From Rubrivivax sp. (GTDB taxonomy: Bacteria; Pseudomonadota; Gammaproteobacteria; Burkholderiales; Burkholderiaceae_C): 64,000 nt of DNA. Location of the stretch: assembly GCA_020852865.1 (NCBI GenBank), contig JADYZZ010000054.1, positions 35,496 to 99,495 of the forward strand. The letters run 5' to 3'. The notes beneath the pieces are model-generated. The model worked only from the letters and a program-made list of their open reading frames with translations. It searched no databases and was not told where the DNA came from. This document shows, piece by piece, positions 29,949 through 63,133 of this stretch. Within the stretch, counting starts at the first letter, position 1. Each line of letters starts with the position of its first letter. The translations under genes and the position numbers were made by a program.

Positions 29949-30243
29949 GTGCCGCGTCCCGAGACGCAGTCGACACCGTCGTACTTCCCGCACGTCGACG
30001 GCCTGCGCGGCCTCGCCGTCATCGCGGTGCTGCTGTATCACCTCGACCCCAGGTGGCTGCCCGGCGGCTTCGTAGGCGTCGATGTCTTCTTCGCGATCTC
30101 CGGCTACGTAGTGACGGCCTCGCTGGCCGGCCACCAGGCCGAAGGCGCGGGCGCCTTCCTTGCGCGCTTCTATTCGCACCGCCTGGCGCGCTTGGTTCCC
30201 GCACTTGCCACGATGCTCGTCGCCACGACGCTGCTCTACGTGC
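29949..30243 (+). pseudogene. 5' fragment of an OafA-like acyltransferase-3 gene
   Basis: HVDGLRGLAVIAVLLYH...GGFVGVDVFFAISGYVVT...FYSHRLARLVPAL, then similarity ends at about 100 codons. Confidence 0.85.
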
Positions 30244-30516
30244 TTGTTTGCCGGCTCGGTGTTGTCAGCCAAGGAGCGCGGCGAAGTGTTCGATGGCTTG
30301 ATGAGCCGGTGCCGATGGGTCGAAGTGTTCTACGCCTGGCGACCCAACTTGCCCGACGAGGGCGACAACCATCTCATCGAGTTGGGTGTCGCCGCGCAGG
30401 CCGGCGCCATCGTCACGCGCAACCTGCGTGACGTGGCGCGCGGCGAGTTGATGTTTCCCCCGCTCAGGGTGCTGACGCCCGAGCAATGCCTGGAGGCGTT
30501 TCCATGTCCACCTTGA
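30244..30516 (+). pseudogene. 3' half of a PIN-domain toxin gene (no start, N-terminal LDTN motif missing)
   Basis: LFAGSVLSAKERGEVF...WRPNLPDEGDNHLIEL...IVTRNLRD; junction position approximate. Confidence 0.8.
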
Positions 30517-30719
30517 CGATCCGTTTGCCCGACGACAAGCACGAGCGCCTGAAGGCGCTGGCGAAGTCCAACGACATCAGCGTCAACAAGCTGATGGACG
30601 AACTGGCCACGGTCGCGCTCGCCAACTATGACGCCCGTGTGCGCTTCGAGACCCGCGTGGCGCGCGGCAACGCCAGGCGTGCGCTGGCGCTGCTCGACAG
30701 GCTCGATCGGGCGGGGTGA
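30504..30719 (+). CDS. RHH antitoxin (HicB-like family partnering PIN toxins)
   Basis: MSTLTIRLPDDKHERLKALA...SVNKL; overlaps the PIN 3' end; GGAGG RBS. Confidence 0.88.
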   Translation: MSTLTIRLPDDKHERLKALAKSNDISVNKLMDELATVALANYDARVRFETRVARGNARRALALLDRLDRAG

Positions 30720-30907
30720 GGCAGCGCGGCGCGTGAGCGGTAAGGCGCACGCGTTGGACGTTGGAGAAAGGTCAGGTCACGAACCGCACCCGATGCTCTG
30801 CGCCAGTCCGTGATCTGGTGCCTGATTCCCAGGCGTGGCGCCCCCGAGACCCTTCGGTCAGAAGCTACATTTCGACCCCGCGCGCCGCAGTGCGCGGTGC
30901 TTCCGAC

Positions 30908-32362: not shown

Positions 32363-32365
32363 GAG

Positions 32366-34541: not shown

Positions 34542-34711
34542 GCCGGACTCGGCCGACCGACGCGACCTGGTCGCGACGTCCCCGCGCAAGGTTGCACATG
34601 TCGAGCCGACCTGTGCCGCACCTCGCGCAGCGCGACCGCGCGGTGGGCAGCCATCCGAGGCTAGACTCGGAGCAGGGTCATCTGTCTCGTCTGCATTCGA
34701 AGGAGGTCGTC

Positions 34712-35107
34712 ATGGCGATAGCCACGCGTGGAGTCTGTGCGGCCCTGATGGCGTTCGTCTTGACCGTCTTCGCGGCATCCGACGCCAGGGCCGTCGTCGA
34801 TCTGGCCAACGGCTGGGGGCCGAGTGCGCTCGAGACCTCGAAACTGCCCGACTATTGCCAGCGCTTCTTCCTCGAGCGGAAGTTGCCGCCGAACTGCGAC
34901 GGCGTGCACCATCTGTGCGCGGGAAAGGTTCTGATGCTCAGGTTGACCGACTTCTCCATTCCCAAGCAGGAGCGGCAGAGGATCCTCGGCCATGCGAAGA
35001 GCGAAGTGGAGTACATGTTCGGCCGCCAGAATGCCTCGTGCACCTACCTTGGGCAGGCGCGGGAGGCGCAGCGCCAGCTTCGGACGTTCGAGGCACTCCT
35101 GCGTTGA
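34712..35107 (+). CDS. Secreted hypothetical protein with four Cys in the mature part
   Basis: AGGAGG RBS; signal peptide; WGP..LE..KLPDYC...C.GVHHLC. Confidence 0.7.
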   Translation: MAIATRGVCAALMAFVLTVFAASDARAVVDLANGWGPSALETSKLPDYCQRFFLERKLPPNCDGVHHLCAGKVLMLRLTDFSIPKQERQRILGHAKSEVEYMFGRQNASCTYLGQAREAQRQLRTFEALLR

Positions 35108-35281
35108 TCAACGCCGCAGCAAGGCTCGGTTTCGATCGGGCGATCATCCGCCGCCGCACCGCGTACGTCGGTGCCGGCGCACGCGTTGCCTGCGGCACGC
35201 TCGGCTCGGTCGATCGAACTGCGCACGGGGCAAATCCGGTGTCGACGACGGCGTTTTTCGACCGCGGCTGATGCGCGACGA

Positions 35282-36265: not shown

Positions 36266-36297
36266 AGCCGCGGCGTCAGGCGCATACGGGTGCGGCG

Positions 36298-37233: not shown

Positions 37234-37379
37234 CGCGGGTTCTCGAGGCGCGTGACTCCGTGACGTAAAGCCCACCGCCGGCGCGGCGCCACACCGATGC
37301 GACGCAGGGTTTTGTTACGCTGCGCCACCCTGCAGCCAGGCCCACGCGCCGGCCGCCGCGGGCCGAACGAGCGAGACAA

Positions 37380-39157: not shown

Positions 39158-40200
39158 CGGCGAGCCGAGCGGCTGCGCCGAGGGGCGACGCGGCCGAAGC
39201 GACCGGTGCGGGCGAAGCAACCGGCACGGCCGACACGATCGACGCGTCCCGCGTGACCGACGCGACCGAACCTGCCGAAGCGTCCGGCGCAACCGATGCA
39301 GCCGACGCGTTCATGGCGCGCGTCAGCGCCGTCATCCCGGCCTACAACGCCGAGCGCCATCTCGCGGCCTGCCTGGCGAGCGTGCTCGCGCAGCGCGGGC
39401 CGTTCGCGCTCGAGGTGATCGTCGTCGACGACGGTTCGGCCGATGCCACGGCCGAAGCGGCGCGCCGCTTCGCGGGCGTGCGCTGCATCCGGCAGGCCAA
39501 CGGCGGCCCGAGCGCGGCGCGCAATGCCGGCATCGCCGCCGCCGCAGGCGAGTTCGTCGCCTTCCTCGACGCCGACGACCGCTGGGAGCCGGGCAAGCTG
39601 GCGCGCCAGGTGACGCTGCTGCGCGCGCAGCCCGAGGTGGGCTTCTGCTCCACCGCGGCGCGTGTGGTCGACGCCGAGGGCCGTGCGGTGGCCGACTGGC
39701 CCTGCCTGGCCGACCCGGCTTCGCTGCCCGAGGCGCTGTTCCTGAACGGCGCCGCCATCGCCGGCTCCACCTCGGGCGTGATGGCGCGGCGCACATTGCT
39801 GCTCGAAGCGGGCGGCTTCGACACCGCGCTGCGCGGCTTCGAGGACCCCGACCTGTGGATGCGGCTGGCGGCACGCGCGCGCTACGCCTGCATCCCCGAA
39901 GTGCTGACCACGGTCGTGCGCACGCCGGGCAGCGTGAGCAGCCGGCTGCCGCGCATGCGCGCCGCCACGCTGGCCTCGTACCGCAAGAACCGCGCGCTGC
40001 TGGCGCCCGACAGGCGCGGGCGCTGGTGGCACGCGGCCTGCGCCGGCGCGCTCACCGACTACGCCAAGGCGGCCTGGCGCAGCGGCAGCCGCGCGCGCGC
40101 CCTGGCCTGGACGCTGGAGGCGCTGGCCCGTGCGCCGCTGGCGCGTGGGCGGCTCGCCCTCGGCCTGCTGGCCGTGATGCTCCGCGGCGGGCGGCTGTAG
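39154..40200 (+). CDS. GT2 glycosyltransferase with acidic hexapeptide-repeat N-terminal extension
   Basis: DAAEAT-type repeats, then VSAVIPAYN, VDDGS, SAARNAG, FLDADD, FEDPDLW. Confidence 0.9.
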   Translation: MTASRAAAPRGDAAEATGAGEATGTADTIDASRVTDATEPAEASGATDAADAFMARVSAVIPAYNAERHLAACLASVLAQRGPFALEVIVVDDGSADATAEAARRFAGVRCIRQANGGPSAARNAGIAAAAGEFVAFLDADDRWEPGKLARQVTLLRAQPEVGFCSTAARVVDAEGRAVADWPCLADPASLPEALFLNGAAIAGSTSGVMARRTLLLEAGGFDTALRGFEDPDLWMRLAARARYACIPEVLTTVVRTPGSVSSRLPRMRAATLASYRKNRALLAPDRRGRWWHAACAGALTDYAKAAWRSGSRARALAWTLEALARAPLARGRLALGLLAVMLRGGRL

Positions 40201-40437
40201 GGCGCGAGGCTGCAATGAAGTGCCAGCCTGCCGTGAAGCGCGTGCCTGCCGTGAAGCGCGAACCTGCCGCGAAGCGCCAGCCTGCGATGGAGCGCGCCTC
40301 GCCGTGAAGCGCGAACTGCCTCTGGTGAGCGCGGTGGTTCCGGCCTGGAACGCGGCACGCCACCTCCAAGCCTGCCTGGCGAGCGTGCTCGCGCAGCGCG
40401 GGCCGTTCACGCTCGAGGTGATCGTCGTCGACGACGG
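39367..40437. repeat. 68-bp direct repeat (one mismatch) shared by the two adjacent GT2 genes
   Basis: 39367-39434 vs 40370-40437: GCCTGCCTGGCGAGCGTGCTCGCGCAGCGCGGGCCGTTC(G/A)CGCTCGAGGTGATCGTCGTCGACGACGG. Confidence 0.9.
40215..40321 (+). repeat. Degenerate 18-bp tandem repeat (about 6 units, VKREPA-like), fifth unit 17 bp
   Basis: Units start at 40215, 40233, 40251, 40269, 40287 and 40304. Confidence 0.85.
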
Positions 40438-41245
40438 CTCGCAGGACAACAGCGCCGAGATCGCGCGCGGCCACGCCGACGTGCGGTGCATCCGCCAGGC
40501 CAACGCCGGCCCGAGCGCGGCGCGCAACCGGGGCATCGAGGCCGCGCAGGGCGAGTACCTGGCCTTTCTCGACGCCGACGACCTGTGGCCGGCCGGCAAG
40601 CTCACAGCCCAGCTCGAGGTGCTGCAGCGCGCACCCGAAGCGGCCCTGGTGTTCGGCGACTGCCGCCAGTTCGACGCGCAGGGCGTGCGCGCGCGCACCG
40701 AGTTCGAAGCCAACGGCCTGGGCGCCGCCGCCTGGGGCCGCGGCTGCATCGTGCCGCAGGCCTATGCGCGGCTGCTCGACAACAACTTCATCACCACCGG
40801 CTCGGTGGTGGCGCGGCGCGCCGCGCTCGAGCGCGCCGGCGGCTTCGCCGAGGACTTGCGCCTGGTGGAAGACCTGGACCTATGGCTGCGCCTGGCGCGT
40901 CAGGCGCCCCTGGCCTGGTGCGGACGCGAGTGCCTGCAGCGCCGCCGCCACGACGCCAACATCTCGGCCGACGGCGAGGCGCTCGGCCTGGCCTTCCTCG
41001 ACGTGCTGCGCCGCCACGCCGCCGGCTGGCAGCCGGGCGAGGCGCAGGCGCTGGGGGTCGACGCGCGCCGGCTCGAAGCGCGCGAGTGGCTGCACCTGGC
41101 GCAGCTCGCGCACCGGCGCGGCGACTCCAGCACGGCTTGGCGACGGCTGGGGCGCAGCGTGGCCGTACGGCCCTGGTCGGCGACGCCGTGGCGGGCAGCC
41201 CAGGCGGCGCTCGGGATGCTGGGCGGCGCGGCGGGCCGCAAGTGA
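40304..41245 (+). CDS. GT2 glycosyltransferase
   Basis: GTG 40304; VSAVVPAWN, VDDGS, SAARNRG, FLDADD, VEDLDLW. Confidence 0.88.
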   Translation: MKRELPLVSAVVPAWNAARHLQACLASVLAQRGPFTLEVIVVDDGSQDNSAEIARGHADVRCIRQANAGPSAARNRGIEAAQGEYLAFLDADDLWPAGKLTAQLEVLQRAPEAALVFGDCRQFDAQGVRARTEFEANGLGAAAWGRGCIVPQAYARLLDNNFITTGSVVARRAALERAGGFAEDLRLVEDLDLWLRLARQAPLAWCGRECLQRRRHDANISADGEALGLAFLDVLRRHAAGWQPGEAQALGVDARRLEAREWLHLAQLAHRRGDSSTAWRRLGRSVAVRPWSATPWRAAQAALGMLGGAAGRK

Positions 41246-41356: not shown

Positions 41357-41646
41357 ATGAAGCCTTCCGAAGCGCTGGCGTCGAACCGGGCCGCGACCCG
41401 GCGCGTGATCGAATCTCACCGCACCCGAAACGCCCGGGTTTTCGGTTCCGTCCTGCTTGGCGAGGACACGGACCGAAGCGACTCGACATCCTCGTCGACC
41501 CGACGCCCGAGACGACACGGTTCGACATCGGTGCCATCCGGCACGAGCTGGGCAGGCTGCTGGGCGTGCCGGTGGACGTGCCGACACCCGGCGCACTGCC
41601 CGACGAGTTCCGGGCCAAGGTTCTCGCCGAAGCGCGCCCGATATGA
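41357..41646 (+). pseudogene. MNT (minimal nucleotidyltransferase) antitoxin with a 1-nt deletion
   Basis: RVFGSV...DTDRSD then shifted frame LDILVDP...IRHELGRLLGVPVDV; one C missing at about 41482. Confidence 0.85.
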
Positions 41647-41782
41647 CGCGCGACTCGCAGCGCCTCGCCGGTTGTCTTGCTCACATCCTCGAGCCGCTCG
41701 AGCGCATCGGCCGCTGCGCCGGCGACATGGATGAGGCGGCGTTTCTGGACAAGCCGCTGGCGCAGGACGCCGTCATCCGGAA
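41643..41782 (+). pseudogene. HepT/DUF86 toxin, N-terminal about 46 codons only
   Basis: MTRDSQRL...HILE..ERI...MDEAAFLD..L.QDAVIR, then similarity is lost; no RxxxxH motif. Confidence 0.8.
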
Positions 41783-41831
41783 ATCTGCTCGCGCCTTCGG
41801 TATCGACCTTGCAGCACCGCGCGTGTCTGCA

Positions 41832-41843
41832 ATGTATATACAT
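41832..41843. promoter_or_regulatory. Perfect palindrome ATGTATATACAT, candidate MazE operator
   Basis: 18 bp upstream of the mazE start, flanked by TGCA on both sides. Confidence 0.6.
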
Positions 41844-41861
41844 CTGCAAAGGAGAGACGTC

Positions 41862-42095
41862 GTGCGAGCGGAGCTTCAGAAGTGGGGAAACAGCGCCGCG
41901 GTGCGCGTTCCCGCGCCGGCGCTCGAGGATGCCGGCATGCAGATCGGCCAGAGCCTCGAGCTGCGCGTCGAAGAAGGCAGGCTCGTCATCGAACCGGCTG
42001 CCGAAAACCTCGAGGACCTGCTGGGCAGGATGACGCCGGAGAACCGCCATGGCCCGGCTCTCGAAGGGCCGGCAGTCGGCGCCGAAGTCTGGTGA
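41862..42095 (+). CDS. mazE: AbrB/MazE-family antitoxin
   Basis: AGGAGA RBS + GTG; LQKWGNSAAVRVP...LEDLL. Confidence 0.92.
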   Translation: MRAELQKWGNSAAVRVPAPALEDAGMQIGQSLELRVEEGRLVIEPAAENLEDLLGRMTPENRHGPALEGPAVGAEVW

Positions 42096-42433
42096 CGGCC
42101 ATCTACGTCCCCGAGCGGGGCGATGTCGTCTGGCTGGACTTCACGCCCCAGGCGGGCCATGGGCAAGCGGGCCGTCGCCCTGCTCTGGTGCTGTCCCCTG
42201 CGGCCTACAACGCAAGGAGCCGCCTGATGCTGTGTTGCCCGGTTACCAGCCAGGCCAAGGGCTACCCGTTCGAAGTGGCGGTCACACCTTCCTCCGGCAA
42301 GGTCATGGGAGTGGTCTTGGCCGACCAGGCGCCGTGTCTCGATTGGCAGTCTCGCAATGCCTCGAAATTCGCGTCGGTCACGACACAGTGCGCGCTGGAC
42401 GTGAGTGCGAAAGTGAAGCTGCTGCTGCCCTGA
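42092..42433 (+). CDS. mazF: MazF/PemK-family endoribonuclease toxin (possibly attenuated)
   Basis: YVPERGDVVWLDF.PQAG...GRRPALVLSP..YN...CPVTSQAKGYPFEV; GTGA overlap with mazE. Confidence 0.92.
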   Translation: MTAIYVPERGDVVWLDFTPQAGHGQAGRRPALVLSPAAYNARSRLMLCCPVTSQAKGYPFEVAVTPSSGKVMGVVLADQAPCLDWQSRNASKFASVTTQCALDVSAKVKLLLP

Positions 42434-42464
42434 GCAGCAGTGAAGCAAGCTGGCGAGCGGCACG

Positions 42465-44159
42465 ATGAGCAGCCCGGCGGCGTCCTTCGAATCCGGTCCC
42501 GGCTTCGTCGGCTGCGCGCAGCTCGGCGCGGCCGCCTGGGCGACGCCGGAGCATGGGCCCAGGATCTGGTTCGACGGCGAGCTGCACAACCTGCCCGAGC
42601 TGCGCCGCACGCTCGGCCTCGACGGCGCGGCCACGCTGGCGCAGGTGCTCGCCGCGGCCTGGCGGCGCTGGGGCGAGCGCATCGGCGAGCATCTGAACGG
42701 CGTCTACGCGCTCGTGCTCGCCGATGAGCAGGGCGCGCTGCTGCTGCGCGACGCCTCGGGCCTGCGCAGCCTGTACGCCGACACCACCCGGCCGGGCGAG
42801 CTGTGGTTCGCCAGCGCGCTCGGCCCGCTGATGCGCCGCCCGGGCGCACGGCGCCGGCTGGCGCGCGCGTCGCTGCACGAGTACCTGCGCCTGGGCGACA
42901 TCGCCGCGCCGCGCACCATCTTCGAAGGCGTGCAGGCGGCCGAGCCGGGCGTGCCCTGGCGCTGGTCGGAGGAGGGCCTGCAGCTCGCTGCGCAGGAGTC
43001 GGCGCGCGCAGCGGCCGAGCCGCCGCCCGACTTCGAAGCCGCGCTCGACGCGCTCGACGCCCTGCTGCGCGCGGCGCTGGCGCGCCGGCTCGAAGGCGCG
43101 CAGCGGCCCGCGGCCTTCGTGAGCGGCGGCGTCGACTCGGCGCTGCTGTGCGCACTGGCCGCGCCGCAACGCGCCGACCTCACGGCGCTCACCATCGGCT
43201 TCGACGCGGGCGAGCTCGACGAGAGCGCGATCGCGCACCGCATCGCGCAGCACCTCGGCCTGCGCCACGAGGTGCTGCGCTTCGGGCGCGCGCCCTGCCT
43301 GCAGGCCTTCGAGCGCCTGGCGCGCGACGCCGACCAGCCGATGGCCGACCCGGCGACGCCGGTCACGGTGCTCGCCTTCGACCACTGCCGCGAGCGCTTC
43401 GACGCCGTGCTCGACGGCACCGGCGCCGACGAGGCGGTGGGCTTGATGCCGCTGCGGCATGCGCGCGTGGCCGTGGCGTACGCGGCGCACCTGCCCTTGC
43501 CGCTGCGGCGCGGCCTGACGGCGCTGCTGCGCCTCGCGCCGCGCAGCGCGCCCTATGCGCGCATCACCGACTTCGAGCACCCGGCCGAGGCGCTGATGCG
43601 CTGGTGGGGCTTCCGGCGCGCCGAGATCGAGGCCCTGGCCGGCGAGCCGGTGTCGCTGGCCGGCACGCGCTTCGTGCGCACCTTCGAGCGCTACGCGCGC
43701 GGCGCGCATTTCGAGCGCTACAGCGCGCTCTACGACGCCATGCCCTGCGAGCGGCTGAACCAGGCCGAGCGTGTGAGCGGGCTGGCGCCGCGCTTTCCGT
43801 ACGCCGATCCGAACGTCGACCGCCATCTGCGGCAACTTCGCACCGACTACCGCTGGTTGCCGGGCCAGCCCAAGCGCATCCTGCGCGCGCTTCTGGCACG
43901 CTACGTGCCGGCGCCGATCTGGGACATGCCCAAGCACGGCCTGGACTTCCCGCTGCACGCCTTCCTCGCCGCCGACGGCCACGCGCTCGTCAGGCGCCAC
44001 CTCGACGCGGCGCGTTGGCGCGAGCGCGGCGTGCTCGACGGCGCTCTCGTGGCGCGCTACGCGGCGCGCTACATCGCCGGCGACGCCGCCCTCGCGTTCC
44101 GCGTCTGGAGCCTGGTGATGCTGGGCGCCTGGCTCGAAGCCCACGATGACCTTGCCTGA
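42465..44159 (+). CDS. Second asparagine synthase-like amidotransferase lacking the N-terminal Cys
   Basis: FDGELHN, RDASGLRSLY, VSGGVDSA, DGTGADE, PKRILR, KHGLDFP. Confidence 0.85.
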   Translation: MSSPAASFESGPGFVGCAQLGAAAWATPEHGPRIWFDGELHNLPELRRTLGLDGAATLAQVLAAAWRRWGERIGEHLNGVYALVLADEQGALLLRDASGLRSLYADTTRPGELWFASALGPLMRRPGARRRLARASLHEYLRLGDIAAPRTIFEGVQAAEPGVPWRWSEEGLQLAAQESARAAAEPPPDFEAALDALDALLRAALARRLEGAQRPAAFVSGGVDSALLCALAAPQRADLTALTIGFDAGELDESAIAHRIAQHLGLRHEVLRFGRAPCLQAFERLARDADQPMADPATPVTVLAFDHCRERFDAVLDGTGADEAVGLMPLRHARVAVAYAAHLPLPLRRGLTALLRLAPRSAPYARITDFEHPAEALMRWWGFRRAEIEALAGEPVSLAGTRFVRTFERYARGAHFERYSALYDAMPCERLNQAERVSGLAPRFPYADPNVDRHLRQLRTDYRWLPGQPKRILRALLARYVPAPIWDMPKHGLDFPLHAFLAADGHALVRRHLDAARWRERGVLDGALVARYAARYIAGDAALAFRVWSLVMLGAWLEAHDDLA

Positions 44160-49996: not shown

Positions 49997-50295
49997 TCAA
50001 CCCGCGTCGGCCGCCGCCTGCACGGCCGCGCTCACCGCCGAGGCCACGACTTCGTCCTTCAGGATCGGGAACTCCTTGACGAGCTTGTTCGATACCTGCC
50101 CGCCGTGCTCGCGCACCGATCGGATGATGCGGTCGATTTCCGGGTCCGAGGCTTCGATGACCTGCTTGACGCGCTCGCGTGCGATGCGCAGGCTGCGCAG
50201 ATGGCCGGCCTCCTGGCGCATCTCCTGCTCGATGGTGACGCGCACGACTTCGGCCAGGTACTCGAGGTGTTCCGTCAGATCGGGCGAGCGCCGCC
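49997..50295 (-). pseudogene. 3' remnant of a Fic-family gene
   Basis: PDLTEHLEYL...EMRQEA...IDRIIRS...KEFP tail; in-frame stop shortly upstream and no Fic motif. Confidence 0.65.
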
Positions 50296-50482
50296 TCGGC
50301 GAGCGGGTCATCGCGCCGGCCGCACCGGCGCTCCATCACGGCGGCGAAGCGGCGTACGCGGTCGACTTGCAGATCCCTGCCCTGCGCGCGTACTGGCCGC
50401 CGGCCCCATCGTGGAGCAAGTCAGCTCGGGCGTCAGTGACGGCGCCACTTCATCGCCTCGCATGCAGCCGTTGCCCGCACGC

Positions 50483-51178
50483 TCAGCGCACCAGCGCCTT
50501 GATGCGCGCCCACAGCGCCGCCTTGGACACGGTGGTCATGGCCGTCGCCTGCATGCACTGGTCCAGCCGATGGGGCCGCGCACGCAGGTCCTCCACGGCA
50601 CCGGCCAGGTCGGCGGCCACGCTGTCGCCGTACGAGCCCTGGGCCTTGGCCATGGCCCGCTTCAGCAGCGCCTTGGGCGGCGCCATCATCGCCAGGTCGA
50701 TGAGGTCACGGCTCATCACGGCATCGTCGCGCCAGCGGTCGGAGTTGGCCAGCAGCTTGCCCGTCGCCATGTCCAGCGCAGTGAGCGTGGCGACGCCGCA
50801 CTGCCTGTCGTCCGGACCCGGTGCTTCGAGTTCGATCCGGCCCTCGAGCACGATCTCGAACTTGATGTCGGCGCCGTCGACCTGCAGCATGGTGCGGATG
50901 CCGTACTGGTCTGCGCGCACCGCGCGCTTCTGGTTCAGCGCGTGGCCGGGCCGGGTGATGGCACGCAGGCCGTCCGGGCCGGTCAGCCGCTGGCGCAGTT
51001 GGCGATAGCCTTCGACCCTGGAAACCAGGAAGTCGATGTCGATCGATTCGCGGTATTCGCCGTAGCGCAACGCGATGGCGGTACCGCCCCCGAAGAGACA
51101 GACATTCGCAGCCAGTACCTCGGCGTCCAGCGCCTCGAGGACGGCCGCTATGCGGCGGTGATGCGCCCGCTCAAACAA
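50483..51178 (-). CDS. AbiEii/AbiGii-family nucleotidyltransferase toxin
   Basis: FGGGTAIAL...YRESIDIDFL, IKFEIV, KLLANSDRW, SRDLIDL. Confidence 0.9.
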   Translation of the reverse strand: MFERAHHRRIAAVLEALDAEVLAANVCLFGGGTAIALRYGEYRESIDIDFLVSRVEGYRQLRQRLTGPDGLRAITRPGHALNQKRAVRADQYGIRTMLQVDGADIKFEIVLEGRIELEAPGPDDRQCGVATLTALDMATGKLLANSDRWRDDAVMSRDLIDLAMMAPPKALLKRAMAKAQGSYGDSVAADLAGAVEDLRARPHRLDQCMQATAMTTVSKAALWARIKALVR

Positions 51179-51650
51179 GCAGGCGCCCTCCGCCCAGTCG
51201 GTCCACCAGGGCCTGCAGCAACGCGCGCTCGGCGGGCTCCATGCCGGCCCGGTCGACGTGACGCCAGTTGCGTTCGTACAGGTTCAAGGCATCCGCCGGG
51301 CTCAGTTCGTCCACGTCGTGCAGCTGCCAGGCCAGGCCCCTGAGCTGATCGAAGTCCGCCAGCCGTATGCTCTGCGGCAGGCTGGCGATGTCGGCCGTGG
51401 CCGGGCGCGCCTGCGGATCGCGAAGCTCCAACTGCAGCCCGACAGCGTCAATCGCGCTCAGGTAGGCGCCCATGGTCACGGATGGCTCGCCGCGCTCGAT
51501 GCGATGCAAGGTCACGCGGGACATGCCCGCGGCCTCCGCGGCCAGCGTGGCGCTGACCTTCTGGCGCTCGCGATGGGCACGAATGCGCTCTCCCAGGGCC
51601 CGGAGCCTGGTGGCGAGTACATCACCGGCAGGAGGCGCTTTGGCGGGCAT
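51171..51650 (-). CDS. XRE-HTH protein with C-terminal LAWQ/YERNWRH domain (putative antitoxin)
   Basis: IRAHRERQKVSATLAAEAAGMSRVTLHRIERG HTH; overlaps the toxin start. Confidence 0.85.
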   Translation of the reverse strand: MPAKAPPAGDVLATRLRALGERIRAHRERQKVSATLAAEAAGMSRVTLHRIERGEPSVTMGAYLSAIDAVGLQLELRDPQARPATADIASLPQSIRLADFDQLRGLAWQLHDVDELSPADALNLYERNWRHVDRAGMEPAERALLQALVDRLGGGRLLV

Positions 51651-51659
51651 TGCGCATCT

Positions 51660-51693
51660 CATTCTATACATTTACTGGAGGTTGTACAGAATG
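51660..51693. promoter_or_regulatory. 11-bp inverted repeat over the HTH-AbiEii promoter
   Basis: CATTCTATACA-N12-TGTACAGAATG (one mismatch); the left arm contains a minus-strand TAGAAT -10 box. Confidence 0.7.
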
Positions 51694-51902
51694 GGCAACA
51701 ACATCGGATCGGACCGTCACGACCTGTGCACGACCGGGCGACGCCCCGCGGTCAGGCCTGCGCAAGCATGGCGACAAGGTCGACTTCCTGCGAGTTGCCG
51801 GCAGCGACGAGAAGTCTTGTCCCTGTCGAGGATGTCGGACAGCTGCAGCCGCTCGTCCGCTTGACGCGCGTACTTGGCGTCGCCCCGATAAAAATCAAAA
51901 AT

Positions 51903-51931
51903 TTGCGACAAATAGTCATAACTGATACACT
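51903..51931 (+). promoter_or_regulatory. Sigma-70-type promoter of the Fic gene
   Basis: TTGCGA-N17-TACACT. Confidence 0.65.
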
Positions 51932-52003
51932 GAAACCGACACACGATGCTCTGAGCTTTTCTCCGTTCAAACAAAGACGACACAGATAGATCGGAGCTCG
52001 TTC

Positions 52004-53581
52004 ATGGTTTCATCAACGCAAAGCGACGGTAAGCTGCACCAACGCAAGCAAAGACGACAAAATGACCTCCGCGGCACGTCCAGCCCAAAAGTGCCGACGG
52101 TCGATGACTCCCTGCTGCTGTACGCAGAGCTGACCCCTGCGGAGATTCGAGCGACCCAGCGCCGACTGCATGCGGGCCGTCTCAAACGCATCGTCCCGGG
52201 CGTCGTTACCGGCCTTGCCGAGGAAACCTGGCCCTCCTTGGTTGCCCGAGAACGCATACGGATCTTGGCAGCGCTCTACCCGAAGGCAGTCGTGGGGCCG
52301 CGCAGCGCCTTCCATGGTGGCGTGCCCAGCCAGGGGGTCATGTACCTGACGTACTCCTACACGAAGAAGGTGGAACTGCCCGGCATGACCGTCCAGTTGC
52401 TGGACGGGCACGGCCCTGCACGAGGCGACGCGCCCATGATGGGACGAGAGCTGTACTTCCCCTCGACCCCTCGTGTCTTGCTGGAAAACCTCACCGTATC
52501 GCGCGCAGCGGTCAGGAAGTCGGTCGGCAAAGCGGAGGTCGAACGCCGACTCATCGAGACCTGCGAGGCGCGCGGCGAGGAAGCGCTCAACGTCCTCAGG
52601 GAGCAGGCGCGCGCTCTCGCTCCGACGCTCGGCCTCGAACGCGAATTCGGCATCCTGGACGCACTCATCGGCGGCGTCCTTGGCACGAAGAAGACGGAGA
52701 TGTCCACTCCTGCCGGCAAGGGGCTGGCGGCCAACGTCCCTTACGACGCAAATCGCCTCGCGCTCTTTGAAGCCCTTGCAGTGGAGTTGCGCTCCGTGCC
52801 TCTGAGGCAGCCTGCTGCGCCCGTCAAGAGCGAACAGGGGCGGGCCCATTTCGCATTCCTCGAGTCGTACTTCAGCAATTTCATCGAGGGCACCGAGTTC
52901 GATGTCGGCGACGCCCGGGCCTTCGTTCTTGAAGGCAAGCCCGTCATCGAGCGCCCCAAGGACTCGCACAACATCATCGGCGTGTTTCGTCAGGCTCTGA
53001 ATCCAGGATGGGCGAACCAGACCCTCGGTTCCGGCGAGCCCGTACTGAATCAGTTGCGCGAGCGCCATGCGGATCAGATGAAAGCGAGGCCGGAGGTCGG
53101 CCCCGGCGAGTTCAAGACGCAAGCAAACAGAGCCGGCAACACCGAGTTCGTGTCACCGCGCCTGGTTCGCGGCACTCTTGTCGAGGGCTCCAAGCTGCTG
53201 CCGACCGTTCCGCCCGGAAGCGCCCGAGCCTTGCTGGCCATGTTCCTCGTCTCCGAGGTTCATCCCTTCACGGACGGCAACGGACGGCTGGCCCGTTTGG
53301 TGATGAACGCGGAGCTGTCGGTTGTCGACGGCTGTCGAATCATCGTGCCGACGCTCTTTCGGGACGAGTACCTCGACTGCCTGCGGGCCCTGACGCGCGA
53401 GCGCATCGTGAAGCCGTACCTCGACGCCATGCAGCGGATTCACGAGTGGACCGCGGCGTTTGACTACGAGGACCTGGACAAGGTCATTGCGGACATGAAA
53501 GCGTGCAACGCGTTCGAGAAGTCACGTACGCAGCACAGGCTGCTCAACCCGCGTCGAACGCCGACCGTACCGCGGCGCTGA
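52004..53581 (+). CDS. Fic-domain protein with long N-terminal extension
   Basis: Complete HPFTDGNGRLAR motif; ESYFSNFIEGT; start uncertain (52004 or a later GTG). Confidence 0.9.
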   Translation: MVSSTQSDGKLHQRKQRRQNDLRGTSSPKVPTVDDSLLLYAELTPAEIRATQRRLHAGRLKRIVPGVVTGLAEETWPSLVARERIRILAALYPKAVVGPRSAFHGGVPSQGVMYLTYSYTKKVELPGMTVQLLDGHGPARGDAPMMGRELYFPSTPRVLLENLTVSRAAVRKSVGKAEVERRLIETCEARGEEALNVLREQARALAPTLGLEREFGILDALIGGVLGTKKTEMSTPAGKGLAANVPYDANRLALFEALAVELRSVPLRQPAAPVKSEQGRAHFAFLESYFSNFIEGTEFDVGDARAFVLEGKPVIERPKDSHNIIGVFRQALNPGWANQTLGSGEPVLNQLRERHADQMKARPEVGPGEFKTQANRAGNTEFVSPRLVRGTLVEGSKLLPTVPPGSARALLAMFLVSEVHPFTDGNGRLARLVMNAELSVVDGCRIIVPTLFRDEYLDCLRALTRERIVKPYLDAMQRIHEWTAAFDYEDLDKVIADMKACNAFEKSRTQHRLLNPRRTPTVPRR

Positions 53582-53700
53582 CCGCCGCGGCCACGACTTC
53601 GTCCTTCAGGAGCGGGAACTCCTTGGCGAGCCTGTTCGACACCCGCCCGCACGACGCCGTAGCGCTGCGCCAGCCAGCGAGAGCCGATCCAATCCGTCAT
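53544..53700 (-). pseudogene. Internally deleted Fic-family gene: about 16 N-terminal codons joined to about 35 C-terminal codons
   Basis: MTDWIGSRWLAQRYGV, then in another frame GRVSNRLAKEFPLLKDEVVAAAVSAAVRSAFDAG*; AT-rich DNA upstream. Confidence 0.55.
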
Positions 53701-53813
53701 GTGGAGCGGCTGCGCAAGCCGTCGAATAGATTAGACGGCACAAATTCCAATTATCTCTGTCTGTGTCGTCAATTTTTCAATTACGCCGCGAAGCGCGTCG
53801 AGACGCCAGGCAC

Positions 53814-54830: not shown

Positions 54831-54877
54831 CGCATCGGCCTCGCCTGGCTCACGCCGTTGCTGTGCCTCGCCCGCAG

Positions 54878-57228: not shown

Positions 57229-57246
57229 GGCGCGGCGGCGCGAACC

Positions 57247-60019: not shown

Positions 60020-60034
60020 CGCGGTACCTCGACC

Positions 60035-61282
60035 TCAGGGGCAGGCGGCCTGGCCGTGCGCCTTGCAGGCCGGCCGCCGCTCGTGCAGCGCGCGCAGTTC
60101 GGCCACCAGCTCGGCGACGCGCCGCTCCCAGCCGTTGGCCTCGGCATGGCGGCGGATCGCCGCCGCGTCCCAGCGCCGCGCAAGCGCGTCGCCGATCGCC
60201 TGCTGCAGGGCAGCCGCGTCGCCGAAGGGCACGACGCTGCCGAGTTCGGGCCGGCACACGACCTCGGCGTTGCCGCCGACGGCCGTCGTCACCACCGGCA
60301 GCCCGCAGGCCATGGCTTCGAGGAAGACGTTGGCCCAGCCCTCGTTGCGCGTGGCGAGCACGAAGACATCGGCCGCACTGAGCGGGCCGCCGAGTTGGTC
60401 GGGCGCGAGCGGCCCGAGGAAGCGCACCGTGTCTTCGAGCCCGGCCGCCTGCACCTGGCGGTGCAGCGCTTCGCTCATGTCGCCCTCCGGCCCCGGGCCT
60501 CCGACCACAAGGTAGACGAGGCCCGGGTGGCGCTGCCGCAGCGCCGGCAGCAGCTCGATCACGCGGTGGAAACCCTTGCGCTCGACGAGGCCGCCCACGC
60601 TCACCAGCACCGGCGCGTCGAGCCCGAGGCCGAGCGCATGCCGCGCCTGCGCCCGCGGCAGCGCCCGGAAGCGGTGCAGATCGACGCCGTTGCCGACGAC
60701 GCGCACCTTGTCGGCCGCGATGCCCAGGCCGAGCGCCACCTGGCGCAGCGACTCCGACACCGCGAAGACGCGCGTCGCGCGCACGAGCGCCGTGCGCAGC
60801 CGGCGGCGCAGCACCGCATCGCGGGCCTGCCGCGGCTCGGTGCCGCGCAGCGTGATCGCCACCGGCACGCCGAGCCAGCGCCCGAGCAGCGTGGCCGCGT
60901 GGCCGTCGGGGTAGCCGAAATGCGCGTCGATGAGGTCCAGGCGCCCGGCGCGCCTTAGCCGCCACAGCGCAGGCAGCGCGCCCAGCGCCATCAGCCAGCC
61001 GTCGAAGCGCTTGAGCACACCAGGCACGGACAGGAAGCGCGGATACCAGACATCGAAGCCGCGCTGCGTCTCGTGGCGCGGCGCGCCCGGTCGGAACCCG
61101 GGCCGCACGCGGCGCAGCAGGCCCTGCAGCGGGAACCAGGGCGTCGGCGCCACCACCGCCAGCGGCAGCTGCGCGCCGACGCGGAACATGCGCTCGCGCA
61201 CGAACAGCCCCGCCATCGGCTGGCGTTCGCTCGGGAACAGGCTGCTCAGCACGACGACATGCGGGTCGGCCATGGCCTTCAC
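60035..61282 (-). CDS. GT4 glycosyltransferase (TuaC-like)
   Basis: LSSLFPS, IDAHFGYPDG, TRNEGWANVFLEAMACG; GTGA coupling. Confidence 0.92.
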   Translation of the reverse strand: MKAMADPHVVVLSSLFPSERQPMAGLFVRERMFRVGAQLPLAVVAPTPWFPLQGLLRRVRPGFRPGAPRHETQRGFDVWYPRFLSVPGVLKRFDGWLMALGALPALWRLRRAGRLDLIDAHFGYPDGHAATLLGRWLGVPVAITLRGTEPRQARDAVLRRRLRTALVRATRVFAVSESLRQVALGLGIAADKVRVVGNGVDLHRFRALPRAQARHALGLGLDAPVLVSVGGLVERKGFHRVIELLPALRQRHPGLVYLVVGGPGPEGDMSEALHRQVQAAGLEDTVRFLGPLAPDQLGGPLSAADVFVLATRNEGWANVFLEAMACGLPVVTTAVGGNAEVVCRPELGSVVPFGDAAALQQAIGDALARRWDAAAIRRHAEANGWERRVAELVAELRALHERRPACKAHGQAACP

Positions 61283-62490
61283 GCCGTAACCTGCTGCACG
61301 AGCCGCTCGTACACCGGCCGGTAGCGCGCCACCGAGCGCGTCCAGTTGCGCTCCTGCTCGACGAAGCGGCGGCCGGCGGCGCGCAGGTGCGGCCATTGCG
61401 CGCGGCGCCCGAGCAGCTCGTCGACGGCCGCGGCCAGCGCGGCGGTACTGCCGGCCTCGAACAGCCATCCGGTCTCGCCGTGGCGGATGAGCTCCCTGTG
61501 CCCGCCGACGTCGCTGGCCACGAGAAGGCGGCCCTGCGCCATCGCCTCCAGCGGCTTGAGCGGGGTCACCAGTTCGGTCAGGCGCATGCTGCGGCGCGGA
61601 TAGGCGAGCACGTCGACGAGGTCGTAGTAGCGCTGCACCTCGGCGTGCGGCACGCGGCCGGTGAAGACCACCTTGTCGGCCAGGCCGAGCGCGGCCGCCT
61701 GCGCCTTCAGCGCGTCTTCCTGCGGGCCGCCGCCGACGAGCAGCAGGCGCACCTCGGGGCGCCGCGCGAGCAGCAGCGGCAAGGCCTCGAGCAGCAGATC
61801 GAGGCCCTCGTAGGCGTAGAAGCTGCCGATGAAGCCGACCACGGTGGCGCCGGCCAGTCCGAGCGCGGCTTTCAGCGCTTCGTCGGCGCTGCCGCCGGGC
61901 TCGAAGGACTCGATGTCGACCGCGTTCGGGATCACCGTCACCTTGTCGGCGGCGATGCCGCGGCCGACGATGTCGCCGCGCAGTCCCTCGCAGATCGTGA
62001 ACACGTGGCTGGCCTGGCCGAGCGCGTGCGTCTCGAGCCGCCGCGTGAGGCGGTAGCGGAGGCTGCCCTGGGCGGTGGTGCCGTGGTCGACGGCGGCGTC
62101 CTCCCAGAACGCGCGCACTTCGTAGACGACCGGGATGCCCAGGCGCCGGCCGACGCGCAGCGCCGGCACGGCGTCGAGCACCGGCGAGTGCGCGTGCAGC
62201 AGCTGCGGGCGCACCGCCTCGGCCACTTCGTGCAGCCGGCGCTCGAGCTGGCGCATCAGCAGCACCTCGTCGAGCCCCGGCAGGCGCGCGGCGGCGTCGG
62301 CGGGAAGCGTGCGATGGAAATGCCAGCCGTCGACGCTCTCCTCGAGCGCGCGCGTCGCGCTGTGCTTGGGGCTCGTGAGCTGGAACGTCTGCCAGCCCAG
62401 CCGCCGCTGCTCGCGCAGGATGGCGAGCGTGCGGAAGGTGTACCCGCTGTGCAGCGGGATCGAGTGGTCGAGGATGTGCAGGATGCGCAT
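61279..62490 (-). CDS. PEP-CTERM/XrtA-system GT4 glycosyltransferase
   Basis: MRILHILDHSIPLHSGYTFRT, YEVRAFWEDA, VTPLKPLEAMA. Confidence 0.93.
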   Translation of the reverse strand: MRILHILDHSIPLHSGYTFRTLAILREQRRLGWQTFQLTSPKHSATRALEESVDGWHFHRTLPADAAARLPGLDEVLLMRQLERRLHEVAEAVRPQLLHAHSPVLDAVPALRVGRRLGIPVVYEVRAFWEDAAVDHGTTAQGSLRYRLTRRLETHALGQASHVFTICEGLRGDIVGRGIAADKVTVIPNAVDIESFEPGGSADEALKAALGLAGATVVGFIGSFYAYEGLDLLLEALPLLLARRPEVRLLLVGGGPQEDALKAQAAALGLADKVVFTGRVPHAEVQRYYDLVDVLAYPRRSMRLTELVTPLKPLEAMAQGRLLVASDVGGHRELIRHGETGWLFEAGSTAALAAAVDELLGRRAQWPHLRAAGRRFVEQERNWTRSVARYRPVYERLVQQVTA

Positions 62491-62507
62491 GGCTCGCGGC
62501 TGCGGCA

Positions 62508-62900
62508 TCAAATCACTACGCGTCCAGCGAGTTCGTCGTACGCGGCGAACGCCGCATCCGCCGAAGCGAGTCGCGCATCAAGCGCCAGCGCCGTGGCAAT
62601 GATGATGCGATCGAACGGATCGCGGTGGTGCTCGGGCAATTCGACGGCGCGCACCGCAATCGCTTCATCCAACGGCAGCAGTTCGATGCCCGAGGGGTGA
62701 AGGGCCTGTTGGACCCAGGTCCGCGCATCGACGGGGAGCTCGAGCCGCCGCCGCCGGGCGGCCAATGCGATCTCGAAGCACGACACCGGTGAGACGCCGA
62801 CGGCAGGTTCCGCAGCCAGCGCTTCCAGCAGCACGCGCGACAAGCGTCCGCGCTCGCCGCTCACCCACCAGAACCAGATGTGGGAGTCGAGGACGATCAC
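62508..62900 (-). CDS. vapC: VapC-type PIN toxin
   Basis: VLDSHIWFWW, SCFEI, HRDPFDRIIIATA, SAD: all PIN acidic residues present; GTGA overlap. Confidence 0.9.
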   Translation of the reverse strand: MIVLDSHIWFWWVSGERGRLSRVLLEALAAEPAVGVSPVSCFEIALAARRRRLELPVDARTWVQQALHPSGIELLPLDEAIAVRAVELPEHHRDPFDRIIIATALALDARLASADAAFAAYDELAGRVVI

Positions 62901-63133
62901 GAGACTGCCGTCCAGTCTGCGGGATCGACGATGGGGCCGACGATGTCGCCGAGCGTGCGTCCCTTGCCCGCAATCAGCAGGCTGGGCCGACGAAGCGGCC
63001 GCGCGGCTTGCGCCTCGGCATCGTCGTCGACGACGAGTGCGATCACTTCGACGCGCCGATTGACGAACGACGCCGGCAGTTCGAGCACCACCCGGGTGTC
63101 GCTGACGTCGATGATGCGGCGTTGGACTTCCAT
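62897..63133 (-). CDS. Putative VapB-type antitoxin
   Basis: 78 aa upstream of and coupled to PIN; AAGGAG RBS; C-terminal GDIVGPI. Confidence 0.75.
   Translation of the reverse strand: MEVQRRIIDVSDTRVVLELPASFVNRRVEVIALVVDDDAEAQAARPLRRPSLLIAGKGRTLGDIVGPIVDPADWTAVS

What the first reader, a model, noticed from the sequence alone, without database searches (positions are those of the whole stretch)
29949..63133. EPS locus partitioned by five toxin-antitoxin modules in graded states of decay
PIN-RHH (30.2 kb), MNT-HepT and MazEF (41.4-42.4 kb), AbiE-type with Fic (50-53.7 kb) and VapBC (62.5 kb) occupy four junctions roughly 10 kb apart between blocks of glycan genes. There is no integrase, transposase or convincing attC site. 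Toxins are truncated or substituted in three modules, and damage falls mainly on toxins. Known: TA modules stabilise superintegrons and islands. Inference: TA modules mark and stabilise exchangeable EPS tailoring blocks of a costly public-good locus, then decay.
Basis: partly seen in the sequence, partly recalled or inferred. Interest (0 to 1): 0.7.

Follow-up and report, generated by a model that had tools for sequence, protein, structure and literature searches.

The report
Toxin-antitoxin cassettes embedded in EPS operon
A Rubrivivax-like bacterium carries six small toxin-antitoxin "addiction" cassettes (two dead, four intact) wedged between genes of its exopolysaccharide locus. Comparison with over 100 relatives shows they are mobile passengers at re-used insertion spots, not general markers of exchangeable sugar-gene blocks.

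Summary
The region is an XrtA/PEP-CTERM exopolysaccharide (EPS) locus.

**Modules at the stated places:**
- A PIN_3 toxin stump with an intact RHH antitoxin.
- A frameshifted MNT with a truncated HepT.
- Intact MazEF.
- An intact HTH/AbiEi-like–AbiEii pair, next to an unlinked class II Fic gene and two Fic-gene stumps.
- Intact VapBC.
- A sixth module (VapBC2) lies 3.3 kb beyond the window.

No integrase, transposase or shared junction repeat is present.

**Enrichment.** In this genome it is about 15–20-fold (6 of about 24 toxin-family loci in 1.3% of the genome).

**Comparison with relatives.**
- Every module is an indel in spacers that are normally 6–120 bp.
- The same spacers elsewhere hold unrelated TA families, IS elements or extra glycan genes.
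- Orthologues of five modules recur in or beside XrtA loci of other Rubrivivax genomes, sometimes at different junctions.
- Outside that clade TA occupancy is rare (2/54, against 9/29 inside).
- PIN genes are not enriched in the relatives' loci.
- TA-only insertions (about 8) and glycan-only insertions (about 16) are largely separate.

**Reading.** TA cassettes accrete selfishly at permissive junctions and decay toxin-first. "Stabilising exchangeable blocks" is plausible locally but not shown, and it is not general.

The parts
29949..30251 (+). 5' stump of an acyltransferase-3 gene (about 90 codons), left side of a deletion scar
   Evidence: PF01757 profile 4-97 of 326, 40 bits. The frame ends where the PIN_3 similarity starts in another frame.
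30256..30516 (+). 3' stump of a PIN_3 toxin gene (dead: lacks about 56 N-terminal residues, including the catalytic Asp)
   Evidence: PF13470 profile 63-114 of 115. It is 93% identical to the C-terminal part of an intact ~140-aa toxin in L262.
30504..30719 (+). Intact RHH antitoxin, now orphaned
   Evidence: HicB and FitA-like RHH hits. Orthologues of 77-92% identity lie downstream of an intact PIN_3 gene in most of 80 loci.
41357..41646 (+). MNT nucleotidyltransferase antitoxin with a -1 frameshift near 41481
   Evidence: PF01909 and NF047752 match the two halves once they are joined. A 1-nt gap appears against the uninterrupted L028 orthologue.
41643..41786 (+). HepT toxin remnant (first ~47 codons only, no RX4HXY site). 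It reads in frame into the mazE region.
   Evidence: 54-57% identity to residues 1-47 of the L028 protein, which is HepT-like (PF01934, 91 bits). The fragment alone gives no Pfam hit.
41832..42095 (+). MazE antitoxin, intact
   Evidence: PF04014 35.8 bits; NF007312.
42092..42433 (+). MazF endoribonuclease toxin, intact. It overlaps mazE by 4 nt and ends 31 nt before AsnB2.
   Evidence: PF02452 82.7 bits; NF007386 135 bits, above the 120-bit cut-off.
49997..50311 (-). 3' remnant (C-terminal quarter) of another Fic-family gene. Its last 109 nt form the left copy of a direct repeat.
   Evidence: tblastn up to 61% to residues ~256-334 of 356-aa 'Fic family protein' genes. PADLOC PDC-S24 positions 397-489 of 497. 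Repeat D4.
50483..51178 (-). AbiEii nucleotidyltransferase toxin, intact
   Evidence: PF08843 79 bits. PADLOC AbiEii 233 bits, full length.
51171..51671 (-). HTH_31 (XRE) antitoxin with an AbiEi-type C-terminal domain, cognate partner of AbiEii
   Evidence: PF13560. PADLOC AbiEi 72.7 bits on residues 100-165. Paired with AbiEii in nearly all of the 80 orthologous loci; the exceptions are mostly loci where AbiEii lies at a contig end.
52004..53581 (+). 525-aa class II Fic protein (own inhibitory SNFIEG motif and HPFTDGNGRLAR core). It is not part of the AbiE module.
   Evidence: PF02661. FICD-like hits in the PDB. Weak SoFic hit. No close (>=50% coverage) homologue of this Fic protein was found next to the 80 AbiE orthologues; one locus, L202, has a weak Fic-like match (35% over 89 aa) beside the module. 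Motifs read from the translation.
53542..53696 (-). Second, shorter remnant of the same Fic-family 3' end; right copy of the 109-nt direct repeat (87% identity, 3547 nt apart)
   Evidence: the repeat finder D4. tblastn of orf104, 68% over 41 aa.
62508..62900 (-). VapC1 PIN toxin, intact. It ends 17 nt before the TIGR04063 glycosyltransferase start.
   Evidence: PF01850 66 bits, profile 1-119 of 120. Acidic residues are conserved in four intact orthologues (sequences). Spacers.
62897..63133 (-). VapB1-like antitoxin. It starts 26 nt after the XrtA-system amidotransferase stop and overlaps vapC1 by 4 nt.
   Evidence: Small ORF with orthologues of 63-80% identity at the same junction in G001, L031, L033 and L038. 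It has no credible Pfam family; the only hit is a sub-threshold HyaE match.
61279..62490 (-). TIGR04063 PEP-CTERM/XrtA-system glycosyltransferase (flank of VapBC1)
   Evidence: NCBIfam 671 bits, above the 442-bit cut-off.
63160..64000 (-). XrtA/PEP-CTERM-system amidotransferase (AsnB3). It is the other flank of VapBC1 and continues past the window end.
   Evidence: TIGR03108 1086 bits, above the 817-bit cut-off.

Best explanation
The stretch is the variable arm and part of the core of an XrtA/PEP-CTERM exopolysaccharide locus of a Rubrivivax-like betaproteobacterium.

Six toxin-antitoxin cassettes have entered short spacers between EPS genes. They are PIN_3-RHH, MNT-HepT, MazEF, HTH/AbiEi-AbiEii, VapBC1 and, just outside the window, VapBC2. 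A Fic gene and two Fic stumps are also present. The cassettes are mostly co-oriented with the flanking operon.

They are mobile, self-retaining passengers. The likely sequence of events is as follows.
1. They arrive by recombination with DNA from related strains, with no integrase or transposase of their own (inferred).
2. They land in the few junctions where an insertion does not break an EPS gene.
3. They persist because losing an intact pair is harmful to the cell (inferred from established TA biology).
4. They decay once the toxin is inactivated: toxin first, antitoxin later.

As a by-product, an intact cassette should make deletions or allelic replacements spanning it costly, which would locally stabilise neighbouring EPS genes. 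This step is inferred, not shown.

In the Rubrivivax clade the same small pool of cassettes recurs in XrtA loci at the same or different junctions. Outside that clade this is rare.
For: **Identity of the parts:**

**Cassettes are indels**
- G001 has GT2e and AsnB2 390 bp apart, against 1220 bp here. It lacks the 9.4-kb DUF6492..GNAT block with AbiE/Fic. It also lacks the sulfatase-like gene and VapBC2.
- In 66 and 64 evaluable XrtA loci, the AsnB3|GT4b and GT4c|AsnB3 spacers have medians of about 0-60 bp.

**The same spacers are re-used by unrelated elements**
- L031: BrnT, AbiE and VapBC.
- L095: MazE-PIN, Xre-RES and MqsR.
- L021: BrnT, IS200-like transposase, HipBA and HicB.
- L039: HipBA. 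L089: PIN.
- G020: IS4 transposase, VapB-PIN, a beta-CASP RNase and VapBC2.
- About 16 other expansions hold glycan genes only.

**Orthologous cassettes in other Rubrivivax XrtA loci**
- VapBC1 at the same junction in G001, L031 and L038, and decayed in L033. L202 also has it beside GT4b, but its AsnB3 appears disrupted there.
- VapBC2 in G020 and L203.
- MNT-HepT at TviB|GT4c in L028.
- AbiE directly after AsnB1 in L191, and next to VapBC2 in L203.
- MazEF 4 kb from Wza-EpsF in L103.

**Clade restriction:** 9 of 29 TA-bearing loci inside the clade against 2 of 54 outside (Fisher P = 0.001).

**Foreign composition:** TA genes have GC3 0.74-0.90, against 0.92-0.96 for core genes.

**High mobility**
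- The PIN_3-RHH module is 86-93% identical across different genera.
- MazF is 55-63% identical across phyla.

**Toxin-first decay:** PIN_3 and HepT here, VapC1 in L033.
Against: - No mechanism of entry is shown. There are no flanking repeats or recombinase, so homologous recombination is only inferred.
- The 15-20-fold enrichment in this genome, and 3-4 of 8 AbiE orthologues in Rubrivivax lying in XrtA loci (P about 3e-4), are more than a 'neutral permissive site' model obviously predicts. They leave room for selection.
- VapBC1 has stayed intact at one junction in several diverged genomes. This fits either addiction or a host benefit.
- TA detection in relatives was complete only for PIN. Other families were seen only inside expanded core junctions, so background rates are rough.
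- Most genomes are MAGs.
Confidence: 0.6

Rival explanations
1. Selected stabilisers. The cassettes are kept because they protect a costly, easily lost public-good locus, or its exchangeable tailoring blocks, against deletion or replacement. Each marks a block boundary.
For: - Strong enrichment in this genome.
- VapBC1 and VapBC2 are wedged with 17-70-nt spacers inside the core operon, so they would be lost together with the EPS genes.
- VapBC1 is conserved and intact at one junction in four diverged genomes.
- Recurrent association in Rubrivivax.
- Low-GC3 glycan blocks abut J1 and J3.
Against: - Most XrtA loci (over 85% of about 90) have no TA in these junctions.
- PIN is not enriched in relatives' loci.
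- TA-only and cargo-only insertions are largely separate.
- The point where G000-G001 protein identity drops from 82-87% to 64% or less (GT4b|g477) has no TA.
- Two modules are dead while their neighbouring EPS genes are intact.
Confidence: 0.2
2. Anti-phage defence islets. The modules are defence genes parked next to a surface-polysaccharide locus, which is a phage receptor determinant. They turn over under phage pressure.
For: PADLOC recognises:
- AbiEi and AbiEii (72.7 and 233 bits);
- MNT as candidate system PDC-S09;
- the Fic remnant as PDC-S24;
- Fic525 weakly as SoFic.

The junctions show fast turnover and diverse families.
Against: - MazF, both VapC proteins, VapB1 and the intact L028 HepT orthologue give no PADLOC hit.
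- The modules are scattered over 40 kb, inside operons, rather than forming one island.
- No phage or other defence genes lie nearby.
Confidence: 0.12
3. Assembly or binning artefact. The TA segments are chimeric joins in a draft or metagenome-derived contig.
For: - The genome is a 102-contig draft.
- TA segments have lower GC3 than their flanks.
- Reads could not be examined.
Against: Orthologous cassettes lie at the same junctions in independent assemblies (G001, G020, L031, L033, L038, L203), with the same flanking genes on both sides.
Confidence: 0.03

Closest known systems
TA modules that stabilise genomic islands, ICEs and superintegron cassette arrays. Examples found are HipAB on a Shewanella composite island (PMC8978831), a TA system on Salmonella Genomic Island 1 (PMC5006074), and SezAT plus AbiE on ICESa2603 (PMC11062541).
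   Same: - Several TA families cluster in non-essential, horizontally exchanged DNA.
- Retention by post-segregational killing is the presumed logic.
- AbiE is among the families involved.
   Different: - There is no integrase, attC, tRNA target, direct-repeat borders or conjugation genes.
- The cassettes sit singly in 17-110-nt spacers inside a chromosomal biosynthetic operon, not on an excisable element.
Surface-polysaccharide loci (capsule, O-antigen) as recombination hot spots with conserved flanks and variable middles (review PMC6249986, found)
   Same: Conserved signature genes (TIGR03108, TIGR03088 and TIGR04063) flank junctions where accessory glycan genes come and go between species.
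   Different: The three literature searches found no report of TA cassettes as regular occupants of such junctions. Here they fill about 40% of the expanded AsnB3-flanking junctions.
XrtA/PEP-CTERM EPS system (Haft et al. 2006, PMC1569441)
   Same: The following are all present above curated cut-offs: exosortase A with an EpsI domain, the system amidotransferase, the stp1, stp2 and stp3 glycosyltransferases, the FemAB-like protein and the ATPase. Two proteins with PEP-CTERM-like tails were recognised by reading their sequences only.
   Different: In this genome and some Rubrivivax relatives, the canonical gene neighbours are split by TA cassettes.

Membership tests
Type II VapBC (VapBC1, 62508-63133) | PIN-domain toxin with conserved acidic active-site residues | tested here: met
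   PF01850 66 bits, full length. D5, E in CFE, D in HRDPFDR and D in SAD are conserved in the G000, G001, L031 and L038 sequences.
Type II VapBC (VapBC1) | Small antitoxin gene immediately upstream, overlapping or adjacent, with a recognised DNA-binding fold | tested here: inconclusive
   The gene arrangement fits (4-nt overlap), and the pair is conserved in relatives. However, the antitoxin matches no credible Pfam family.
Type II MazEF | PemK/MazF-fold toxin preceded by an AbrB/SpoVT-type MazE | tested here: met
   NF007386 135 bits, above the 120-bit cut-off. PF04014 35.8 bits. 4-nt overlap.
Type VII MNT-HepT | HepT toxin with the RX4HXY active site, and an intact MNT adenylyltransferase | tested here: not met
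   HepT stops aligning after residue 47 of the L028 orthologue, before RNRVSHGY. MNT has a 1-nt deletion. It is a dead relic of a member.
Type IV AbiE | AbiEii nucleotidyltransferase toxin | tested here: met
   PF08843 79 bits. PADLOC AbiEii 233 bits over 1-221.
Type IV AbiE | AbiEi antitoxin (N-terminal wHTH plus C-terminal toxin-neutralising domain) | tested here: inconclusive
   The C-terminal 66 residues match a PADLOC AbiEi model (72.7 bits), but the N-terminus is an XRE HTH_31 rather than the canonical wHTH. The pairing holds in nearly all of the 80 orthologous loci.
PIN_3-RHH module (30256-30719) | Complete PIN_3 toxin including the N-terminal catalytic Asp | tested here: not met
   Only profile positions 63-114 of 115 are present. 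The intact relatives are about 140 aa.
Integron or superintegron cassette array | IntI integrase and attC recombination sites flanking the cassettes | tested here: not met
   All ORFs in 29.9-63.1 kb are accounted for and none is a recombinase. No repeat is shared between junctions.
Genomic island or ICE stabilised by TA | Integrase, tRNA or other target gene, direct-repeat borders, excisable unit | tested here: not met
   None was found in the locus. The only direct repeat (109 nt) is a duplicated Fic 3' end around AbiE/Fic.
XrtA/PEP-CTERM EPS locus | Exosortase A plus the system-specific amidotransferase, glycosyltransferases, FemAB-like protein, ATPase and PEP-CTERM substrates | tested here: met
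   TIGR03109 332 bits (cut-off 208), TIGR03108 1086 (817), TIGR03087 551, TIGR03088 494, TIGR04063 671, TIGR03019 518 and TIGR03015 399. The PEP-CTERM tails at 25470-26608 were identified by reading the sequence only.
Class II Fic AMPylator (52004-53581) | HPFx[D/E]GNGRxxR core and an intramolecular inhibitory [S/T]xxxE[G/N] helix before it | tested here: met
   PF02661. HPFTDGNGRLAR and SNFIEG were read in the translation. FICD-like matches in the PDB. Activity was not tested.

The most novel reading that the evidence does not exclude
In the Rubrivivax lineage, a small circulating pool of TA cassettes (VapBC1, VapBC2, AbiE, MNT-HepT, MazEF) is specifically adapted to life inside XrtA/PEP-CTERM EPS operons. 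The cassettes would be transcribed from the operon's own promoters. They would act as locks that penalise deletion, allelic replacement or silencing of the EPS genes. This would be a chromosomal, integrase-free analogue of plasmid or island addiction that protects a cooperative trait.
Probability: 0.15. Interest if true: 0.75.

Novelty: new variant of a known kind. Interest (0 to 1): 0.5.

Why it matters
It would show that addiction cassettes colonise and persist inside a biosynthetic operon for a shared extracellular product, not only on mobile elements. The work also identifies specific, re-used insertion junctions on either side of the XrtA-system amidotransferase across Burkholderiales and Rhodocyclales.

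This gives a concrete system for testing whether TA cassettes slow the loss or exchange of cooperative-trait genes. XrtA/PEP-CTERM EPS loci have been linked to floc formation in activated-sludge bacteria (PMC9850573 abstract, seen).

If the cassettes are only passengers, the result is still useful. It is a natural series of toxin-first decay states with intact orthologues in hand for comparison.

Tried and rejected
- **attC-like or shared junction repeats.** The repeat finder over 29-64 kb gave only the 109-nt Fic-end duplication.
- **Integrase or transposase in the region.** None was found among the annotated ORFs. The nearest mobile-element gene is a group II intron reverse transcriptase about 25 kb beyond the window.
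- **General PIN enrichment in relatives' XrtA loci.** Not found: 3 of 138 hits against 1.7 expected.
- **'AbiE with Fic' as one system.** Rejected. None of the 80 AbiE orthologues has a close homologue of this Fic protein or of the Fic stump next to it; L202 alone shows a weak Fic-like match.
- **Pfam detection of short fragments.** The HepT fragment, and a RelE/ParE-like remnant at the G001 GT2e|AsnB2 junction, gave no hit. HepT was confirmed through the L028 orthologue instead. The G001 remnant stays unconfirmed.
- **PIN_3-RHH as an EPS-associated module.** Rejected: 0 of 80 orthologues lie in EPS context.
- **Literature precedent.** Three full-text searches found no report of TA cassettes in PEP-CTERM, capsule or O-antigen loci.
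- **Automatic ORF filters for TA genes in relatives.** These were noisy in this 72% GC DNA. They were replaced by junction-gap analysis.


Full report
**Setting.** The window is C54:35496-99495 of a 4.19-Mb, 102-contig genome with 72% GC.
- Bases 1-25 kb hold housekeeping genes.
- From about 25.5 kb an exopolysaccharide locus begins. It runs past the window end to about window-equivalent 81.6 kb.
- It is an XrtA/PEP-CTERM system. The following all score above curated cut-offs: exosortase A with an EpsI domain (TIGR03109), the system amidotransferase AsnB3 (TIGR03108), the stp1, stp2 and stp3 glycosyltransferases (TIGR03087, TIGR03088, TIGR04063), the FemAB-like protein and the ATPase.
- The part covered by the finding holds a Wzx flippase, many GT2 and GT4 transferases, methyltransferases, deacetylases, two further AsnB-like ligases, an AT3-SGNH acyltransferase, a GNAT and a Wzy polymerase.
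- Titles of related records name the lineage as Rubrivivax / Sphaerotilaceae.

- *J1 (30.2 kb).* An acyltransferase-3 5' stump is joined to the 3' part of a PIN_3 toxin gene, followed by an intact RHH antitoxin. Intact orthologues are about 140 aa. The local copy is 93% identical to one of them but lacks the first ~56 residues, including the catalytic Asp. This is a deletion scar.
- *J2 (41.4-42.4 kb).* MNT has a 1-nt deletion relative to an uninterrupted 77%-identical orthologue in Rubrivivax sp. SCN 70-15 (L028). HepT aligns only to the first 47 residues of the L028 protein, which is a full HepT (PF01934, 91 bits) with RNRVSHGY. An intact MazE-MazF pair follows directly.
- *J3 (50-53.7 kb).* This junction holds an intact AbiEii toxin with an XRE-type partner. 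The partner's C-terminus matches a PADLOC AbiEi model. It also holds a divergent 525-aa Fic gene with both the inhibitory SNFIEG motif and the HPFTDGNGRLAR core. Two remnants of a different Fic-family gene form a 109-nt direct repeat around the unit.
- *J4 (62.5-63.1 kb).* An intact VapB-VapC pair lies 26 nt after the amidotransferase stop and 17 nt before the TIGR04063 transferase start.
- *J5, a sixth module.* An RHH-VapC2 pair lies 3.3 kb past the window, between a sulfatase-like gene and the TIGR03088 transferase.
- No recombinase gene fits in the region, and no repeat is shared among the junctions.

**Is it more than chance?** Within this genome, yes.
- Uniform scans with five toxin families gave 21 hits, four of them in the 56-kb locus (P = 1.6e-4).
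- Counting the two stumps and a BrnT homologue elsewhere, it is 6 of about 24 (P about 1e-6).
- This is the densest TA cluster seen in the genome.

**What relatives show.**
- *Closest relative, G001 (XrtA 77% identical).*
  - It has VapBC1 at the same junction, at 58-67% identity between flanks of 82-87%.
  - It lacks MNT-HepT-MazEF. GT2e and AsnB2 are 390 bp apart there, and that spacer may hold a RelE/ParE-like remnant that Pfam did not confirm.
  - It lacks the whole 9.4-kb DUF6492-to-GNAT block that includes AbiE/Fic.
  - It lacks the sulfatase-like gene and VapBC2.
- *G020.* It has VapBC2 next to the same transferase. The same spacer also holds an IS4 transposase, a second VapB-PIN pair and a beta-CASP RNase.
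- *Four other congeners.* The three core genes are directly adjacent.
- *Eighty further loci, fetched through the amidotransferase.*
  - The triad TIGR03088-TIGR03108-TIGR04063 is conserved across Burkholderiales and Rhodocyclales, with spacers of a few to about 120 bp.
  - Expansions of 300 bp or more occur in 11 of 64 and 8 of 66 loci.
  - About 40% of these expansions are filled with TA genes of many families: VapBC, BrnT, AbiE, MazE-PIN, Xre-RES, MqsR, HipBA and HicB. Some also carry an IS200-like transposase.
  - The rest hold glycan-tailoring genes such as acyltransferase, carbamoyltransferase, methyltransferases, MBOAT, epimerases and a PEP-CTERM protein.
  - TA and glycan cargo share a junction only in this genome (J5), and perhaps in G020.

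**A lineage effect.** On an amidotransferase tree, 9 of 29 loci in the Rubrivivax-like clade carry TA genes in core junctions, against 2 of 54 elsewhere (Fisher P = 0.001). Orthologues of five local modules recur in or beside other Rubrivivax XrtA loci:
- VapBC1 at the same junction in G001, L031 and L038. In L033 the toxin is internally deleted and the antitoxin is intact. L202 also has VapBC1 beside GT4b, but only a 46-aa AsnB3 fragment was detected there.
- VapBC2 in G020 and L203.
- MNT-HepT at the TviB|TIGR03088 junction in L028.
- AbiE directly after the AsnB1 orthologue in L191 (the J1-equivalent position), and beside VapBC2 in L203.
- MazEF 4 kb from Wza-EpsF in L103.

Whole-collection scans temper this.
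- Only 4 of 80 AbiE orthologues lie in XrtA loci, all of them in Rubrivivax.
- One of the five closest MazEF orthologues does.
- None of 80 PIN_3-RHH orthologues does.
- PIN genes in 18 relatives are not enriched in XrtA loci: 3 of 138 against 1.7 expected.

**Do TA sites mark glycan blocks?** Only in part.
- J1 and J5 coincide with differences in glycan gene content.
- J3 lies inside a genome-specific block, at its convergent midpoint.
- J2 and J4 are TA-only indels.
- Between G000 and G001, protein identity drops from 82-87% to 64% or less at GT4b|g477. That boundary has no TA.
- TA genes have lower GC3 (0.74-0.90) than core genes (0.92-0.96). Two low-GC3 glycan blocks (Wzx-MTb and DUF6492-AT3SGNH) abut J1 and J3, so co-arrival is possible there.

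**Most likely mechanism.** Mobile TA cassettes enter the few spacers of a recombination-prone, non-essential glycan locus where insertion is tolerated. They persist by addiction, then decay toxin-first.
- *Shown:* the indel nature of the cassettes, re-use of the junctions, recurrence within the clade, foreign composition and the order of decay.
- *Inferred:* entry by homologous recombination, addiction itself, and any stabilising effect on neighbouring EPS genes.

The rivals (selected stabilisers, defence islets, assembly artefact) are weighed in their own sections.

**Limits.**
- Most comparison genomes are MAGs.
- Only PIN was surveyed genome-wide in relatives.
- The sulfatase-like label, the PEP-CTERM tails and the Fic motifs rest on reading the sequence.

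**Earlier notes.** Earlier first-reader notes on this window were used only as leads and were re-tested.
- Confirmed: the deletion scar, the MNT/HepT decay, the Fic-remnant repeat and the VapBC wedge.
- Not supported: the proposed three-gene AbiE-Fic system.

Noticed in passing
C54:102837-103507 (window-equivalent 67342-68012, beyond the window end): A sixth TA module. An RHH antitoxin and an intact PIN toxin (VapC2, PF01850 47.6 bits) lie between a sulfatase-like membrane protein and the TIGR03088 glycosyltransferase. Orthologues lie at the same place in G020 and L203.
   Followed up: yes
C54:123960-124967 (window-equivalent about 88.5-89.5 kb): An ORF that looks like a group II intron reverse transcriptase/maturase, read from the translation only. 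It lies about 7 kb past the end of the EPS locus and is the nearest mobile-element gene.
   Followed up: no
window 39322-39621 and 40325-40624: Two adjacent GT2 genes are tandem paralogues (300 nt at 78% identity, 1003 nt apart). A third related GT2 gene lies at 36.4 kb.
   Followed up: no
window 34640-35030 (+): A ~130-aa ORF with a signal-peptide-like start lies in the 630-bp gap between the two methyltransferase genes. It has no Pfam match.
   Followed up: partly
G001:C36:16612-17003 (L001), minus strand: The short GT2e|AsnB2 spacer of the closest relative encodes a stretch (VNAVFWRPGALRQLRKIDPRAGRKIRDAV...) that resembles the N-terminus of RelE/ParE toxins. Pfam gave no hit. If real, the same junction holds a relic of a different TA family.
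   Followed up: partly
L202 (Rubrivivax sp. C15 MAG, JAUXVE010000142.1), about 4032-8693: Only a 46-aa fragment of the XrtA-system amidotransferase is detected next to VapBC1. A Fic-like stretch and HTH-AbiEii follow. The core amidotransferase may be disrupted there. The same MAG has MazEF 4 kb from Wza-EpsF (L103).
   Followed up: partly
L189 (Aquabacterium MAG), 7508-10122 and 14864-16279: The AbiE antitoxin gene and a neighbouring GT2-like gene appear twice, 7.36 kb apart. This suggests a tandem duplication of a segment that carries the module.
   Followed up: no
L262-L283 (PIN_3-RHH orthologues): The PIN_3-RHH module is 80-93% identical at protein level in MAGs labelled as different genera (Vitreoscilla, Ramlibacter, Paucibacter). 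This points to recent horizontal spread.
   Followed up: partly
window 28300-29925, 42465-44159 and 63160 onward: There are three AsnB-like ligases in one locus. Only the third reaches the TIGR03108 cut-off. The other two score far below it (230 and 166 bits against 817).
   Followed up: partly
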